Made by a program: the position numbers and the translations under genes | Part shown: positions 9,736-55,209 of the stretch, piece by piece | Numbering within the stretch: position 1 is the stretch's first letter | How the letters are laid out: each line of letters starts with the position of its first letter | Assembly (NCBI GenBank): GCA_951406725.2 | Contig: OX597826.1 | Coordinates: 29,946,001 to 30,010,000 of the forward strand | Direction of reading: 5' to 3' | DNA from: Octopus vulgaris | Taxonomy: Eukaryota | Length of the DNA stretch: 64,000 nucleotides | Notes under the pieces: generated by a model | What the model saw: only the letters and a program-made list of their open reading frames with translations | Databases searched by the model: none | Told to the model about the DNA's origin: nothing

Positions 9736-9807
9736 AATCCCATAGTCAATTTTCGCTATTAAGGACAAAGTAAATTAATTTGCCATCCATAATTCGTCAG
9801 TGAAATC
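9736..9807 (-). ncRNA. Degenerate type I hammerhead ribozyme candidate
   Basis: gatttca-CTGACGA-attat...atagc-GAAA-attgac-TA-tgggatt. Stems I and II pair with wobbles; stem III has a mismatch. Confidence 0.45.
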
Positions 9808-14614: not shown

Positions 14615-16113
14615 CATTGGACAACAAAGATTTTGCTACTGGAGCAGAAACATGTGTTTTAGACTAAACCGAGGATGCTGACTCCGAATCCGCAATCAGA
14701 ATTGTTCAGGCACGACAAGATTTTGAGTTATGCGCATGCGCAAAATTTATAACTATACTTTCAGCTAGATATAGACCGCATTATAAAATTTGTTAAAATG
14801 AAAGCAAGAAAATAATACTTGTTTCTGTACTGACGGTAATGCACTCATACAAAAACTAGGACATGTGAATATGGCTAACGAATGGAGATCGTTTATAGAC
14901 TCGAGTAAGGTTAGCCTCAAAACTGTGTTGTCTCATAATGGTAATGAAACACATTTCATTCCTGTGGGTCATGTTGTCGGTATGGAAGAAACTTATGAAT
15001 CGATGGAACTTATTCTGAAAGGAGGTAATTACTCAGTTCATAAGTGGAATATTTGTGGTGGTTTAAAGGTGATTTCCCTCCTCCTTGGACAGCAGCTGGG
15101 ATATACCAAAAATATGTGCTTCTTGTATGTTTGGAACAGCCACAACGACAGCAATCATTCCACTGTAAAAGACTGACCTAAAAGAGATGAGCGCATAGTT
15201 GGTCGATGCAATGTGCAGCATATGCCACAGGAAGACCTGTAAAAGATTTTTCTTCCACCCCTTCACATCAAACTCGGCCTCATGAAAAACTTTGTAAAAG
15301 CAATGACACATGATGGTTGTGCCTTCCAGTACCTTAAAGTGAAATTTGGTGCAGAGAAAAGTGACGCAAAGCAGAAAGCAGGCATTTTCATTGGACCCGA
15401 GATTAGAGAATTGATATCTGATAGCAAATTCAGAGGTAAACTGAATCCAGTTGAGCTGACGGCATGGGATTCATTCCTTTTGGTAGTTGTACAAAACTTT
15501 CTTGGAAGTCATAGAGCGGAAAACTATGCTGAATTAATAAACAACATGCTAACAACGTACGAGAGAATGGGATGCCGAATGTCCCTTAAAATGCACTTCT
15601 TGCATTCTCAACTCGATTTTTCCTAACGAATCTTGGTGCCCTTAGTGATGAACATGGTGAGAGGTTCCACCAAGAAATATCTGAGATGGAAAAGAGGTAT
15701 CAAAGCCAGTTCAATCGACATATGATGGGTGACTACCGCCGGTTCCTACAACGGGAGACCAGCACGACGCATAAGCGCAAGAGCAAGTGTCTTAAACATT
15801 TCTGAGCTGAGCATATCAAAAATAAAGTGAATATTCCCTTCACATAAATATACTATGTACCATTATATTATAATATTATTTGCCTTGAACAATACTATAT
15901 ACAGTACTAATATTCTATAATAATAATTATTTAGCTTCAACTTAACTATTTCTGATTCTAGTATAGTATTAATATATAATTATGCGCATAACTCAAAATC
16001 CAGATGTGTTACATTAATTCTGAGTGCAGATTCGGAATCAGTATACTCTATTTAGTTTAGTACAGCACCATTTGTCTGGGTAGCAGATAATAAATCTTTT
16101 TTTCTGCCCAGTG
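14615..16113 (+). mobile_element. Chapaev3-like (CMC superfamily) DNA transposon with a transposase pseudogene
   Basis: EWRSFIDSSKVSLKTVLSHNGN...WNICGGLKVISLLLGQQLGYTK...LPPLHIKLGLMKNFVKA...MSLKMHFLHS...SDEHGERFHQ, with stops and frameshifts (~14820-15805). Imperfect TIRs cattgga...ccagtg include ctccgaatccgcaatcagaatt / aattctgagtgcagattcggaa. The family assignment is from recall of these motifs. Confidence 0.8.
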
Positions 16114-18060: not shown

Positions 18061-18498
18061 TTCACTTCCGGATTCTCTCACTCTGTGAAAGTTTCAAGTT
18101 CGAATCACACGTGTCTCGAGATGTGCCGAAGATTTTCTATTTTGGATATATTTGGGGTACTTAGTGTTTGCTTTTTCCATGGGTATGAGTAAGTATTTCA
18201 CTTATATCTCACGTATTTATCGCTGAAGAGGGGAAAATTCTTATGAATTAACCCCGAAATTGGGACCAATACGGTAATAACGGATTTTTTAGAAATTTCT
18301 ATCGGTTTGTTTCGAGACGCATAAATTATAATGGTTATTGACAATTTTTGGGGTTTTTTTCGGCATATTTGGCATTAGAATTTTTCTTTTGCCCTTATTT
18401 TGTAAATTATTCATAAATTTAACCTTTAAATGTATTTTTTGATATGCTGGCCATTGATAAAATTTTTTTCCCGAAAAAAATTTTATCCTACATTAGTT
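18058..18498 (+). mobile_element. ~440 bp (TA)n-flanked element containing a hammerhead ribozyme
   Basis: (TA)n on both sides; hammerhead at 18212-18282. Confidence 0.7.
18212..18282 (+). ncRNA. Type I hammerhead ribozyme with an intact core
   Basis: Stem I tatt(t)atcg/cggtaata; CTGAAGA at 18223-18229; stem II GGGG-aa-AATTC-ttat-GAATT-aa-CCCC; GAAA at 18256-18259; stem III TTGG-ga-CCAA. Predicted cleavage at AUA, after 18271. Confidence 0.85.
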
Positions 18499-18555
18499 AT
18501 ATATATATATATATATATACATTAATCAAAATAAAAACATGATGCCAAGGATTCA

Positions 18556-18633
18556 GCGGTACATATGTTTCGGGCCTTTATTAGACGGATTTATAACAAT
18601 GCATAATGTGTGTCTATGGCCTTCTTCAGCCGC
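18556..18633 (-). ncRNA. Hammerhead ribozyme, mirror copy in the left arm
   Basis: Exact reverse complement of 18900-18977. Confidence 0.8.
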
Positions 18634-18899
18634 GCACAATTACTACCCCAAGGACACGTATTACATCAAAAATTCTACGTTGGGGATGCAAATCCTCTCA
18701 TTCGCGTACGACATAATGCGGCACCAGCACAAAAATGGAGCGTCCATCTCGTCCTTCTCTCAATGTAGAATGAGAGAAGGACGAGATGGACGCTCCATTT
18801 TTGTGCTGGTGCCGCATTATGTCGTACGCGAATGAGAGGATTTGCATCCCCAACGTAGAATTTTTGATGTAATACGTGTCCTTGGGGTAGTAATTGTGC

Positions 18900-18977
18900 G
18901 CGGCTGAAGAAGGCCATAGACACACATTATGCATTGTTATAAATCCGTCTAATAAAGGCCCGAAACATATGTACCGC
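18900..18977 (+). ncRNA. Type I hammerhead ribozyme with a palindromic stem III
   Basis: GCGG-CTGAAGA-aGGCC...tagac/gtcta...GGCCc-GAAA-CATATG-TA-CCGC. Predicted cleavage at GUA, after 18973. Confidence 0.8.
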
Positions 18978-19079
18978 TGAATCCTTGGCATCATGTTTTT
19001 ATTTTGATTAATTTACTCCACCACCTACACCACCAAACGGTATATACAGGTGCTTACAATTATCAAGTACTCACCCTGA

Positions 19080-19190
<111 letters not shown>

Positions 19191-23908: not shown

Positions 23909-24776
23909 TTGCGCACCAAAATGTCCAGAACGGCATTGTTTTCGTCAGAAAAGGAGGTACAATATTTTATCAAAGTTGTTTTATATTCTATATAATTTTC
24001 ACAGACAATAAATACGATATCATTTGTTATGGTCCGAGATTCTGGTGTAATTTGAGAGGATAATACAAAAGTTATGGCTTCACTGCAGGTGATCTTGCTT
24101 GTAGGTCATGTTCAACTAAACGACGAGACACAGTTTTTCGAGATAAAGTTTTCTTCAATACAATGCTCATTTCCCGAGAAACAGCAGCAGTAGTTTTAAA
24201 TCTGTCCTTTTTAACCAATTTTACCATAGCACGATCTTCTCTCTTAGTCGTTTTTTTTGGCCTACCTGCAGACTTTCTTGCTTCACACGAACCACAATCA
24301 TCGTAGACCTTAAGAATACCGTGTACAACACTTTTTGACTTGTTAACAATCTTTGCAATAGACCCAATACTTAAATTATCCTTCTTTCGAAGCTTAATAA
24401 TCTGCTGACGAATTGGTAACGGAGTAAGTGGCATTATATAAACAAAGTACACTGCAGATATTCTTACTAATGTTTAGTAAACGAACCGTCAAGTAAACAA
24501 ATTCAAAACATTAGAGTTCGCCTGTTCAATATACTAAAACATGGAGTAAAAGCAACCGTTCTGATCATTTTGGCCGCCATGGGTTTTGCAGTAAATCACT
24601 AAATCATCCATGACTTTTGTATTATCCTCTCAAATTACACCAACATCTCAGACAATAACAATTAATATCGTATTTATTGTCTGTGAAAATTATAGAATAT
24701 AAAACAAATTTGATAAAAAATTATACCTACTTTTCTGCCGAAAACAATGCCGTTCTGAACATTTTGGCCGCAACTG
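23906..24776 (-). mobile_element. Internally deleted Tc1-like transposon in (TA)n
   Basis: TA-cagttgcg...cgcaactg-TA termini with ~165 bp TIRs and an extra internal copy of ccgttctgatcattttggccgc near 24557. ORF 24072-24434 encodes the Tc1 paired-HTH N-terminus (IAKIVNKSKSVV...AGRPKKTTKREDR...SRKTVSRRL). Confidence 0.9.
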
Positions 24777-32800: not shown

Positions 32801-32895
32801 TGGAAATAAAATAAAATATGGAAGGAAATATGAGTAGAAATAAAATAAAATATGGAAATAAAATAAAATATGGAAATGAAATAAAATATGGAAGG

Positions 32896-34408
32896 AAAAC
32901 AACATAAATATAGACTTGGATATAGCAATGAACCCTAACAAACTAGCAAATATACGGAGATATATTCTCAACGCAAAAAAAATATCAGAAATAGAAATAG
33001 AACATCTAAAAGAAAAAATACATCAGGAAAATGTAGATAGAAGCCAGACGACAATGCCCAATAATATAAACACTGAAACAGTAAAACACGAAGACAAATG
33101 TAACACTCCCAACACGACAAACAAACATACAAATAAGAAAGAAAACGACACAAATCTAAAACCTGGAAACAATGAAGGGGAGCCTAATGAATATGATAAT
33201 ATAAAAAGTAGAATAATCAAAGAACTGAAAACCACAGAGCTCAAAATGGACCAAAGACCATACCTCCCAAAAATCAAAATAGACGAAACAACAACACCAA
33301 TTATAAACAGCATTAACCTAGCCGTCACGGAACTAATAGCCACTGAAACAAAAAGCGATATCACTGAGCTAAATAACTTAGTATACGCAGCAGCCACTGC
33401 AGCCACAAAAGAAGTTGGATGATAGCATCCCTCACACATGGATCCTCGAAACACTAGCCATTAACAAAGTAGCACCAACAATTATAAAATTCATTGGGCA
33501 CTCTTTGAATAAATGGCAAACAGTGCTACAGCTCCAAACAAAAGAGGGACTCATGAAAACCAAAGCCATCCCCATTAGAAGAGGAATATTCCAGGGAGAC
33601 ACGCTCTCTCCACTCCTTTTCTGCTTGGCACTGTCACCTCTATCTGATATGCTAAATAGAACTGGATGCAGATATAAATGTTACGACAAAACGATCAGCC
33701 ATCTTTTATATATGGATGACCTAAAACTATACGCTGCAAATGACAAACACCTGGAAACACTATTAAAGACAGTTCATGGATTTACCAAAGAAATAGATAT
33801 GAAATTTGGATTAGAAAAATGCGCCAAAGTAACCATGAAAAGAGGAAAACTAGTTAAGAGTAGCAACATCACACTAGATAAAACCAATGAAATAAAAGAA
33901 TTAGACCAAAGCCAAACTTACAAATACTTAGGAATCCATGAACTAGATAAGACACAACACACACAAATGAAAGAGAAAATAAAAAAAGAATATTATAGAC
34001 GAGTTAGATCAATACTAAAAACAGAGCTCAATGCTAAAAACAAGATAATAGGTATTAACACTTTAGCTGTCCCAGTTATAAGTTACAGCTACAATATCCT
34101 TAACTGGACACGAAATGAACTGACCAAAATAGATAGGAAAACAAGAAAAATAATGACAGGGTCTAGAATGCATCACCCAAAATATGACATAGAATGACTA
34201 TATATACAACGTATAGAAGGTGGTAGAGGCCTTATACAGCTGGAAAACTACTATAAAATAACCACCATAGGACTGCAAAAATATCTACTTCAGAAGGAAG
34301 GAAAACTGATACAAATAGCGGCAAAACACGAGCAAAACAAGAAAATGTTCTCAGTATTTAAGGAAGCTGACAAATACAAACAAGAAATCATACCACCTAA
34401 CAAATATA

Positions 34409-34439
<31 letters not shown>

Positions 34440-35420
34440 AGAAGAAGAAGAAGAAGAAGAAGAAGAAGAAGAAGAAGAAGAAGAAGAAGAAGACAACAAC
34501 AAAAGCTATAAAACAAATGAAATCTAAACTAAAACTAGAACAGCAAAGAACCATGATAAAACGATGGCAAGAAAAACCCCTCCACGGTAAATACTGGACT
34601 AAACTAAATGCAAAAGAAATAGACAAAGAAAAATCCCAGCAATGGTTGAGAAGCTCAGGACTCAAAGCAGAGACAGAGGGATTTTTAATTGCAGCACAAG
34701 ACCAAAGCCTCTCCACCAGAAATTACCAAAAACATGTAATAACAAGTAACTGCAGAATATGTGGAGATGGACAAGAAACAATAAATCATATTATCTCTGG
34801 CTGCCCAGTCCTGGCTAAGAAGGAATATATTCACAGACATGACAGAGTTGGAACCTACATACACTGGAAGCTATGCCAACATTATGGAATAACAACAGAA
34901 AAAAGATGGTATAGGCACACACCAGAAAAGGTCACAGAAAACGAGAAAGCAACCATACTCTGGGATATGCCGATACACACAGATAGAGAAATTAAGGCCA
35001 ACAGACCAGATATAGTTGTCAGAGATCATGAAGGAAAAAAATGCTTTCTAATTGATGTATCAATACCGGCAGATGACAACGTGTCTCTAAAAGAAATGGA
35101 GAAACTTTCAAAATACAAAGACCTGGAAATGGAGGTAACCAGAATGTGGAATCTAAAAACAGAAACAATTCCTATCATAGTAGGTGCATTAGGCATGATA
35201 AAAAAATATTCAGACAAATACATAACAAAAACACCAGGACTTACAAACACATATAACATACAGAAAATTGCACTACTAGGCACTGCACACATCCTACGCA
35301 GAACACTTTCCATACAATAACCATCAGAGTATCACAGCAAATCACAGCACATACCCAAGGCACACAGAGCTGCGCTCAGTAGTGAAGTGAAAGCACGATA
35401 TAAAAAATAAAACTACTGAA
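32896..35420 (+). mobile_element. Dong/R4-clade non-LTR retrotransposon (RT + CCHC + restriction-like endonuclease), defective
   Basis: RT motifs DSIPHTWIL, GIFQGDTLSPLLF, HLLYMDDLKLYA, FGLEKC and YKYLG; CRICGDGQETINHIISGC; RHD; RPDIV...IDVSIP...KY. The 3' end runs into (TAA)n. Defects: internal deletion at ~33415, a stop at 34195 and a (GAA)n expansion with frameshift at 34410-34492. Confidence 0.93.
33418..35320 (+). pseudogene. Reverse transcriptase/RLE ORF, disrupted
   Basis: ORFs 33415-34197 and 34517-35320 are colinear parts of one R4/Dong-type protein. Confidence 0.9.
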
Positions 35421-40704: not shown

Positions 40705-40880
40705 TCATTCTAATTTCGGCACAAGGCCAGCAATTTTGAGGAGGAAGGGGGTTAGCCGAGTACATCGTCCCCCACTGTCTCAACTGGTTTCTTATTTTAA
40801 AACTTTGAAAAGCTGAAAGGTACAGTGGTATCGGCGGAATTTGAACTCAGAACGTAAATATCCGGAAGTAATTCCGCCAA
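40705..40880 (-). mobile_element. SINE family 2
   Basis: tcggcggaatttgaactcagaacgtaaa. Confidence 0.65.
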
Positions 40881-40933
40881 ATGTGAACAGGTATATTTAT
40901 AAAATACGCCATGTATTTTAAACAAATATATAT

Positions 40934-40966
<33 letters not shown>

Positions 40967-41054
40967 TTAAAAAAAAAATGGACGCTGAACAGTAAGAAAA
41001 TAAGAAAAAATGAAAAGGTTGGTACAAAAAATTGCACGAGAAAAAAGAAACGAT

Positions 41055-41415
41055 GCACCGGATATAAGATAGGTGGATTGCATAACGTCTTTTGAATTCG
41101 CCTTCATACAACCCAATGTAATAATTATTTTCAATTGATTTGTCTTTGAGCGTTGCTGTAACTTCTGCTTCGTCAAGTGGGCATGATTTAAGATCTCGAC
41201 AGTTACAACTGGGTGTAGTCTCTTTGGTTATTTTTGCAAGTTATGTTCTTCATATTGTATGATATTTTTACTGAGCGTCTATTAAAAATGTTCATATACT
41301 TATGATTTATTGGAAAATGTTTATCTGAAAGAGACATGTATTTCTTGCTTACAGAAGTCTTAACCATAAGGGAGAAAGGAGGTGTGAGCCAAATTATTTC
41401 CCTAGGTCTATACAT
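41055..41415 (-). mobile_element. Penelope-like (Nematis-type) fragment: linker plus GIY-YIG endonuclease
   Basis: RPREIIWLTPPFSLMVKTSVSKKYMSLSDKHFPINHKYMNIFNRRSVKISY, then SCNCRDLKSCPLD and NYYIGLYEGEFKRRYAIHLSYIR in shifted frames. Confidence 0.85.
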
Positions 41416-46399: not shown

Positions 46400-46645
46400 T
46401 AATCAAAATAAACAACAAGAATATCCAGGGGTAATGCAGTACGATCGTTTCATGCAACTCCATTTAACTGAACAATACAATCATTACATCAATTTAAAAT
46501 GCAGAGCAATCCTCAGCTGCACAAAGACAGAATTTTTAATTAAATTAGAACATATGGACACATTAGTGTAATTATACCTAAAATCTCCAAGAAGTTAAGA
46601 AGATAGACAAAGAACATGCTGCGTTCACTCCACCATAGAAGCTAC
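46400..46645 (-). mobile_element. (TA)n-flanked element with a hammerhead
   Basis: Its end aatcaaaataaacaaca resembles the arm end of 18521 (aatcaaaataaaaaca). Confidence 0.7.
46435..46521 (-). ncRNA. Type I hammerhead ribozyme
   Basis: TGCAG-CTGAGGA-tTGC...cattttaa...ttaaatg...GCAt-GAAA-CGATCG-TA-CTGCA. Predicted GUA cleavage between 46440 and 46439. Confidence 0.78.
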
Positions 46646-54604: not shown

Positions 54605-55209
54605 CAGTAACAATGAAGGGTGAAATTAATTAATTTGGAACAATTATCAATTACACCAAGTAGTCTTCGGCATGTAAAAGCCTCATTCGAGGAAAATTTA
54701 AGTAATACTAAGCAATTAAGGGTTTAGCAACGAATTGCCTTACCACACACCGAATTTAGAAATAGCAGTCAAAGAGATTATAGCTATTTCTTCTACTAAA
54801 AGGGAGATCACAGTAAAGGCACAGCATTTGAAAGGCAAACACAAACAGGTAAAAGAGAATGAATTAACGGCAATCTATCATACAGTTTTAAGTCACCTAC
54901 GGACGTACGTTTCGAGATCAAGTCTTAGGAAAGCATAAGAATTAGATAACTCTACTTTACCCAGTTATCTAATTCTTATGCTTTCCTAAGACTTGATCTC
55001 GAAACGTACGTCCGTAGGTGACTTAAAACTGTATGATAGATTGCCGTTAATTCATTCTCTTTTACCTGTTTGTGTTTGCCTTTCAAATGCTGTGCCTTTA
55101 CTGTGATCTCCCTTTTAGTAGAAGAAATAGCTATAATCTCTTTGACTGCTATTTCTAAATTCGGTGTGTGGTAAGGCAATTCGTTGCTAAACCCTTAATT
55201 GCTTAGTAT
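54602..55209 (-). mobile_element. (TA)n-embedded fold-back element
   Basis: Arms 54705-54951 and 54963-55209 (247 bp, no mismatch seen), an 11-nt spacer and a ~100-nt tail. Contains a hammerhead 3' half, GAAA-CGTACG-TC (55001-55012 and mirror). Confidence 0.92.

What the first reader, a model, noticed from the sequence alone, without database searches (positions are those of the whole stretch)
46435..46521. Hammerhead related in layout to the 18900 one but with covarying stems
It has the same architecture (long stem II insert, 6-nt palindromic stem III, GUA site, similar downstream ttgttt/attttgatt tail) but different paired sequences: stem I TGCAG/CTGCA versus GCGG/CCGC, and stem III CGATCG versus CATATG (and CGTACG at 55005). 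Keeping palindromy while changing sequence argues for selection on structure, probably on dimeric cleavage.
Basis: partly seen in the sequence, partly recalled or inferred. Interest (0 to 1): 0.7.

Follow-up and report, generated by a model that had tools for sequence, protein, structure and literature searches.

The report
Hammerhead tail of Penelope-like retrotransposon
This is the clipped tail of a known kind of jumping gene (a Hydra-type Penelope-like element) with a hammerhead ribozyme motif; its short self-matching stem differs in sequence from family to family and likely lets two RNA copies pair up to cut, a design already described in such elements.

Summary
The motif is real. It is a type I hammerhead on the minus strand (46434-46522), inside a 244-nt 3' fragment of a Hydra-clade Penelope-like element lying between (TA)n tracts. 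The genome holds 915 exact core matches. Longer copies carry RT and an endonuclease 47% identical to that of the 18900 family, so the two families are relatives.

The covariation holds. With stem III left unconstrained, 15 of 21 other clusters with a 6-nt insert are self-complementary (9 perfectly). The centre pair, which a monomer cannot form, also covaries. The double hammerhead is the predicted best fold.

Corrections: the 55005 copy is half a ribozyme. Stem I differs by one pair only. An older subfamily (about 250 matches) has CGGTCG, a wobble pair and not a palindrome. Decay within the family is neutral CpG loss.

Palindromic helix III, dimer cleavage and the U·U base of stem II are published; earlier scan notes found this class elsewhere in this genome. 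Weak extras: 5'-truncated copies start 2-4 times more often at the predicted cut site, and dimers are predicted to be family-specific. Cleavage itself is untested.

The parts
46402..46645 (-). 5'-truncated 3' end of a Hydra-clade Penelope-like element (family A, short 3' end)
   Evidence: 91% over 248 nt to another copy; 3136 first-look candidates, best copies 92-94%; RT and EN upstream in longer copies
46517..46522 (-). hammerhead stem I, 5' strand
   Evidence: pair probabilities 0.73-0.99
46510..46516 (-). catalytic core CUGAGGA (C3-A9); N7 varies among copies
   Evidence: N7 differs in 27 of 70 copies, other core positions in 15 of 822 cells
46452..46509 (-). 58-nt stem II with U.U at 10.1/11.1, then UGC/GCA and an extended hairpin
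   Evidence: U.U in 115 of 121 copies, pair 10.2/11.2 U-A in 70 and A-U in 33
46448..46451 (-). core GAAA (G12-A15.1)
46442..46447 (-). self-complementary stem III insert CGAUCG; an 8-bp duplex between two copies is predicted
   Evidence: duplex -10.0 kcal/mol, monomer hairpin +2.4
46439..46441 (-). GUA triplet end; predicted cut between 46440 and 46439
   Evidence: hammerhead numbering (established knowledge); excess of 5'-truncated copies starting here
46434..46439 (-). hammerhead stem I, 3' strand
46402..46433 (-). 3' tail to the short end, running into (TA)n; similar in the 18900 family
18518..19085 (.). related family B: fold-back insertion with two hammerheads (18900-18977 +, 18556-18633 -), stem III CAUAUG
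   Evidence: EN 47% identical to family A
54705..55209 (.). family C fold-back; each arm holds only the 3' half of the hammerhead (stem III CGUACG at 55005)

Best explanation
This is a type I hammerhead motif in the truncated 3' end of a Hydra-clade Penelope-like retrotransposon copy that sits in a (TA)n tract, and its self-complementary stem III is predicted to let two element RNAs pair into a double hammerhead that likely cuts after GUA. Shown: the motif, the family, the link to RT and EN, and covariation between families. Predicted: a lone copy does not form stem III; two copies (in one tandem transcript or in trans) form an 8-bp helix III with exchanged stems I. Inferred: cleavage trims precursor RNA, and weak monomer activity leaves most templates uncut so that the ribozyme is copied intact. 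Selection acted on the active source elements; this genomic copy is probably an inert passenger.
For: 915 exact matches and 0 for the control pattern. L121 holds RT with DKT, the linker and EN upstream of the same hammerhead. Hydra motifs and (TA)n targets as in PMC8557442 section 11 and File S2. Stem III self-complementary in 15 of 21 unselected clusters, p=3e-15; centre pair 18 of 21, p=8e-6. Window copy: double hammerhead -46.6 kcal/mol, equal to the cofold minimum, against -40.8 for two monomers; monomer stem III probability about 0. Truncations at the cut site 11-13 of 30 sampled, against 3-6 and 5-9 of 30 at two control positions; rate ratio 2.3-3.6, p 0.025-0.005. Dimer cleavage is published for this class (PMC4209133; PMC7229834 for the axolotl).
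Against: No cleavage assay. Subfamily A2 has CGGTCG: its duplex is only -5.8, and its double hammerhead (-48.0) is no better than two monomers (-48.0) and worse than the cofold minimum (-55.0). The double hammerhead equals the cofold minimum in only 4 of 11 representatives. 6 of 21 clusters are not self-complementary, and 19 other clusters have 7-12-nt inserts. Clusters are not phylogenetically independent. Core conservation is not significant among the 49 copies not selected on the ribozyme (p=0.25). The truncation test has only two control positions and microhomology may bias it. No second family A copy lies in the window or 10 kb either side, and the close pairs found are mostly inverted, so one transcript would not carry two sense ribozymes. 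PMC4209133 reports low activity even as dimers.
Confidence: 0.72

Rival explanations
1. Same element, but the ribozyme cuts as a monomer with a 2-bp stem III and a tetraloop, helped by contacts from the long stem II or by proteins; the palindrome is secondary.
For: PMC7229834 describes this helix III in invertebrate hammerheads, reports efficient cleavage in invertebrate retrozymes, and 22% monomer cleavage for axolotl Amex2, which also has a U.U base in helix II. Family B forms the monomer pair with probability 0.25. A long stem II goes with the 6-nt class (18 of 24 versus 5 of 19 clusters, p=0.002).
Against: The middle and centre pairs covary although a monomer cannot form the centre pair. 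Monomer pair probability is below 0.1 in 10 of 11 representatives.
Confidence: 0.15
2. The motif is kept as an RNA pairing or recognition signal (dimer seed, RT handle) and catalysis is marginal.
For: Nearly all copies run through the site uncut: about 28 start at the site, against 915 exact full matches. U.U replaces G10.1-C11.1. Low in vitro activity is reported in PMC4209133.
Against: The catalytic core is the same across unrelated families while N7 varies; truncations are in excess at the cut site.
Confidence: 0.1
3. The palindromes are a mutational by-product of fold-back and template switching by the element's RT, or chance.
For: Fold-back insertions are frequent in these families.
Against: The palindrome sits at a fixed place between GAAA and UH in many unrelated families; G-U variants (CGGTCG, CATGTG) keep RNA pairing but not DNA symmetry; shuffles give none.
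Confidence: 0.03

Closest known systems
Hydra-clade Penelope-like elements and their hammerheads, including Hydra-1_Obim (Craig et al. 2021, PMC8557442; passages, section 11, supplement parts 1, 2, 52, 53 of 59 read)
   Same: C-terminal EN, CxCX5C linker, DKT, CxxC..E..N..CxH, hammerhead near the 3' end, (TA)n targets, inverted truncated arms, tail at one end only. Many listed Hydra hammerheads have the same U.U base followed by tgc/gca and a similar gttgttt 3' tail.
   Different: Listed Hydra hammerheads have short stems II (3-7 bp with 3-10-nt loops) and mostly 7-8 nt between GAAA and the cleavage U with an unpaired centre; here stem II is 58 nt and stem III a 6-nt palindrome. Family A is over 6 kb, with an Asn-rich linker and a 2.7-3.4 kb 3' region, against mostly under 3 kb. 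Hydra-1_Obim has a different hammerhead.
Minimal and variant type I hammerheads of metazoan PLEs (Cervera and de la Pena 2014, PMC4209133; parts 1-2 of 4 read, supplements not read)
   Same: Small palindromic helix III, proposed dimer activity, many families per genome with compensatory changes, most motifs in truncated single copies.
   Different: That consensus has G10.1-C11.1 with an extra 5' base and a 7-8 bp helix II; here U.U and a much longer helix II.
Dimer-cleaving PLE hammerhead variants (Lunse et al. 2016/2017; paper not held, known only through PMC6765202 and PMC6466107 passages)
   Same: Palindromic short stem III and cleavage as dimers.
   Different: Cannot be compared in detail; text not seen.
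Axolotl HHR_Amex2 retrozyme hammerhead (Cervera and de la Pena 2020, PMC7229834; passages read)
   Same: 2-bp helix III with tetraloop, U.U at the base of helix II, better cleavage as a dimer.
   Different: Non-coding 350-bp tandem repeats; family A is the end of a coding element.

Membership tests
Type I hammerhead ribozyme | Core CUGANGA ... GAAA ... UH | tested here: met
Type I hammerhead ribozyme | Stems I and II, ends open in stem I | tested here: met
   compensatory change at 10.2/11.2 between subfamilies
Type I hammerhead ribozyme | Stable stem III in the monomer | tested here: not met
   pair probability about 0; 8 bp predicted only between two copies
Type I hammerhead ribozyme | G10.1-C11.1 pair (usual, not universal) | tested here: not met
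   U.U in 115 of 121 copies; same variant in published Hydra hammerheads
Type I hammerhead ribozyme | Loop 1 - loop 2 tertiary contact | not tested
   none
Type I hammerhead ribozyme | Self-cleavage after UH | not testable with these tools
   indirect only: truncation excess
Hydra-clade Penelope-like element | RT with DKG modified to DKT | tested here: met
   ADKT in L121; motifs matched by eye to the published consensus DNA; Pfam gave no RT hit, Atlas neighbours carry RVT_1 in 12-42% of members
Hydra-clade Penelope-like element | C-terminal GIY-YIG endonuclease | tested here: met
   downstream of RT in L121; Pfam GIY-YIG E=0.01, below cut-off; 47% identical to family B EN
Hydra-clade Penelope-like element | CxCX5C linker; CxxC and CxH around conserved E and N | tested here: met
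   read in translations of families A and B
Hydra-clade Penelope-like element | CCHH motif absent from EN | tested here: inconclusive
   by eye only, on degraded copies
Hydra-clade Penelope-like element | N-terminal RWK motif | not tested
   no complete 5' end was found; L121 is truncated there
Hydra-clade Penelope-like element | Insertion in (TA)n and hammerhead near the 3' end | tested here: met
Hydra-clade Penelope-like element | Generally short (under 3 kb; descriptive) | tested here: not met
   L121 element spans over 6 kb
Hydra-clade Penelope-like element | Placement in the Hydra clade by RT phylogeny | not tested
   no tree built
Non-LTR retrozyme | Short non-coding unit in head-to-tail tandems | tested here: not met
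   family A continues into RT/EN; family C (55005) does form about 587-bp tandems

The most novel reading that the evidence does not exclude
Stem III and stem I act as a family-specific pairing code, much like the 6-nt dimer-initiation palindromes of retroviruses (analogy recalled). Among dozens of co-resident families, each RNA would pair in trans only with its own kind. The double hammerhead would both cut and hold two templates together for the RT jump that builds the two-armed insertions. Support: heterodimers between distinct families cost 14-38 kcal/mol, except B/E (4.9), C/C2 (0) and A1/A2; inverted pairs have one long and one short end in 13 of 15 (A) and 8 of 9 (B); some arms start at the cut site. 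Orthogonality may be a mere by-product of drift.
Probability: 0.15. Interest if true: 0.65.

Novelty: new member of a known kind. Interest (0 to 1): 0.3.

Why it matters
As it stands: a new family of a known ribozyme class, in a genome with roughly 90,000 descriptor-matching hammerheads, about 60,000 of the 6-nt class (extrapolated from 600 kb). Its value is as test material for an open question, what hammerheads do in Penelope-like elements. The family panel gives natural compensatory variants for the dimer model, including the centre pair that only a dimer can form. The excess of insertions starting at the cut site is a genomic hint of cleavage in vivo.

Tried and rejected
Rfam: no hammerhead match, probably because of the long stem II; the miRNA hits are microsatellite noise.

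Pfam and PDB gave no clear RT hit for the degraded ORF.

Folding z-scores of the whole motifs (-0.40, +1.18) and of the stem II inserts (-1.49, -1.83) are not significant, so selection on the distal stem II is not shown.

Within-family conservation as a test of selection was rejected: the palindrome CpGs decay at 10.8% against 15% for another CpG (p=0.33). The Fisher p of 3e-20 for pair 10.2/11.2 counts copies, not events; it is essentially one inherited change.

A tail-to-ORF junction was sought in 30 tail-selected copies: none continued into element sequence; all ended in simple repeats.

RNA: no RNA holder listed. Three raw runs of one study gave family A reads on both strands with no pile-up of ends at the cut site and only 2 reads on family C. 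They are probably from a related species and are randomly fragmented, so this is no test.

Start positions of arms in loci not selected on their start were too few to test the cut-site excess. The automatic truncation classifier (13 versus 7) has at least one false call (L351), so the by-eye ranges are quoted. One stray family A copy (L273) was dropped from the 25 six-nt clusters, and A, B and C were set aside, leaving 21.

Lunse et al. was not held. Literature searches found no paper on family-specific dimer codes or on cut-site truncations, but the library is incomplete.

Full report
Observation. The 18900 motif and its mirror copy at 18556-18633 are as described. The 55005 site is only the 3' half of a ribozyme inside a perfect fold-back. 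A descriptor that ignores stem III finds 3 palindromic 6-nt motifs in the window and none in 100 shuffles. Rfam has no matching hammerhead model.

What it is part of. The window lies in G000, 2.8 Gb in 227 contigs; an octopus-like animal is my inference. The segment 46402-46645 is one copy of a dispersed family (A) between (TA)n tracts: 3136 first-look candidates and 915 exact matches to stem I, core and stem III, with 0 for the control. Walking upstream through longer copies reached an endonuclease 2.7-3.4 kb before the hammerhead. In L121 an RT region precedes it. The motifs DKT, CxCX5C and CxxC..E..N..CxH, and the (TA)n targets, are those given for the Hydra clade of Penelope-like elements in PMC8557442. 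I matched RT and thumb motifs to the published consensus DNA by eye; no tree was built. Family B (18900) has the same kind of endonuclease about 1.7 kb upstream, 47% identical to that of A. A and B are therefore related elements; their 3' tails still align, their stem II inserts do not. Family C (55005) is young, forms about 587-bp tandems and showed no ORF in the unit. Copies of A end mostly 30-49 nt or 120-159 nt after the cut site. Inverted pairs have one long and one short end in 13 of 15 (A) and 8 of 9 (B) cases, as in the published 'tail at one end'.

Covariation. In a four-family alignment (A, A2, E, B), 47 of 48 cells pair; one pair in stem I, one in stem II and two in stem III change on both sides. 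An unbiased test used 600 kb of arbitrary stretches (58 spread over 16 contigs, 2 flanking the window). It gave 21 hits against 1.2 in shuffles, 13 of them with a 6-nt insert against 0.2; 7 of the 13 are perfect palindromes and 12 self-complementary with G-U. Over all 1.5 Mb then held, 21 clusters other than A, B and C gave 9 perfect and 15 self-complementary inserts. Outer, middle and centre positions pair in 18, 19 and 18 of 21, and the centre shows AT, TA, CG, GC, GT and TG. A monomer cannot close the centre pair, so this is the best evidence for pairing between two copies. The clusters are not independent lineages, and some single copies are decayed.

Within families. CGATCG is intact in 54 of 82 A copies, CATATG in 37 of 40 B copies and CGTACG in 34 of 35 C copies; most B and C copies and 33 of the A copies were chosen by likeness to the window copy. 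Losses in A are mostly CpG transitions, at a rate like that of another CpG, so genomic copies decay neutrally. A pattern search found 273 matches whose third letter is not A; 27 of 30 fetched read CGGTCG. This subfamily A2 is more diverged (16% versus 10% pairwise) and has A-U in place of U-A at 10.2/11.2. Strict palindromy is thus not constant in the lineage; pairing with G-U is.

How it likely works. The lone window RNA is predicted not to form stem III; the palindrome pairs instead with GAUUG next to the core (probability about 0.8). Two copies form a double hammerhead at -46.6 kcal/mol, equal to the cofold minimum and 5.8 below two monomers. It beats two monomers in 10 of 11 representatives and equals the cofold minimum in 4; A2 gains nothing. 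Following PMC4209133, cleavage would trim precursor RNA, possibly to a circle, while weak monomer activity leaves most templates uncut. As an indirect test, prompted by an earlier scan note on another family, I counted copies starting at the cut site. They were 11-13 of 30 sampled (64 matches), against 3-6 of 30 (64) at +3 and 5-9 of 30 (39) at +5; ratio 2.3-3.6, p 0.025-0.005. In L352/L353 both arms end at the site. Two controls and possible microhomology make this suggestive only. RNA runs gave no test.

Comparison and verdict. Small palindromic helix III, dimer cleavage and many covarying families per genome are in PMC4209133. Dimer cleavage is restated in PMC6765202 and PMC6466107 (passages). 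The U.U base of stem II is in the Hydra table of PMC8557442 and in axolotl Amex2 (PMC7229834, passages). That table also lists a 6-nt palindromic insert and a 52-nt stem II, in non-Hydra elements. bioRxiv 10.64898/2026.07.22.740005 (part 1 of 5 read, supplements closed) links retrozymes to PLE ends. PMC13282606 (passages) lists Penelope-like families in an octopus and has no occurrence of 'ribozyme' in the main text. Lunse et al. was not seen, nor the supplements of PMC4209133 and PMC7229834; they may hold similar variants. What differs here is the pairing of a long stem II with a 6-nt stem III (18 of 24 versus 5 of 19 clusters), the long element and the sheer number. Earlier notes of this scan describe the same class elsewhere in this genome. 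Verdict: real, a new family of a known kind; interest 0.3.

Noticed in passing
window 18217-18277 (+): A further type I hammerhead with short stem II (GGGG/CCCC) and a 10-nt stem III insert; relatives in L046, L079, L201.
   Followed up: partly
window 9745-9807 (-), core at 9800: Weak hammerhead-like match with a non-complementary 6-nt insert; may be decayed or chance.
   Followed up: no
window 40797-41240 (-): Degraded endonuclease fragment with a CxCX5C motif, probably another Hydra-type element; no Pfam hit.
   Followed up: partly
window 32880-35320 (+): Non-LTR retrotransposon with RVT_1 (E=2.9e-16) and a C-terminal nuclease-like region; the R4/Dong label is recalled, not tested.
   Followed up: partly
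window 24072-24473 (-) and 14802-15626 (+): Transposase-like ORF fragments, judged by eye.
   Followed up: no
window 54705-55209; L094, L097: Family C is very young (many copies 100% identical) and forms about 587-bp head-to-tail arrays, a retrozyme-like unit. L149 shares its stem III and 3' stem I strand but has a different stem II.
   Followed up: partly
L121 1511-7760; L118; L031: Family A has an Asn/Asp-rich linker between thumb and EN and a 2.7-3.4 kb AT-rich 3' region with internal repeats at about 72-79% identity; unusual for Hydra elements.
   Followed up: partly
L043, L084, L181, L182, L031: A common family with CATGTG in several independent copies (one CATATG): a second wobble-type stem III.
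   Followed up: partly
L373, L321: Internal deletions between look-alike words in the 5' strand of stem II and just after the cut site remove most of the ribozyme.
   Followed up: no
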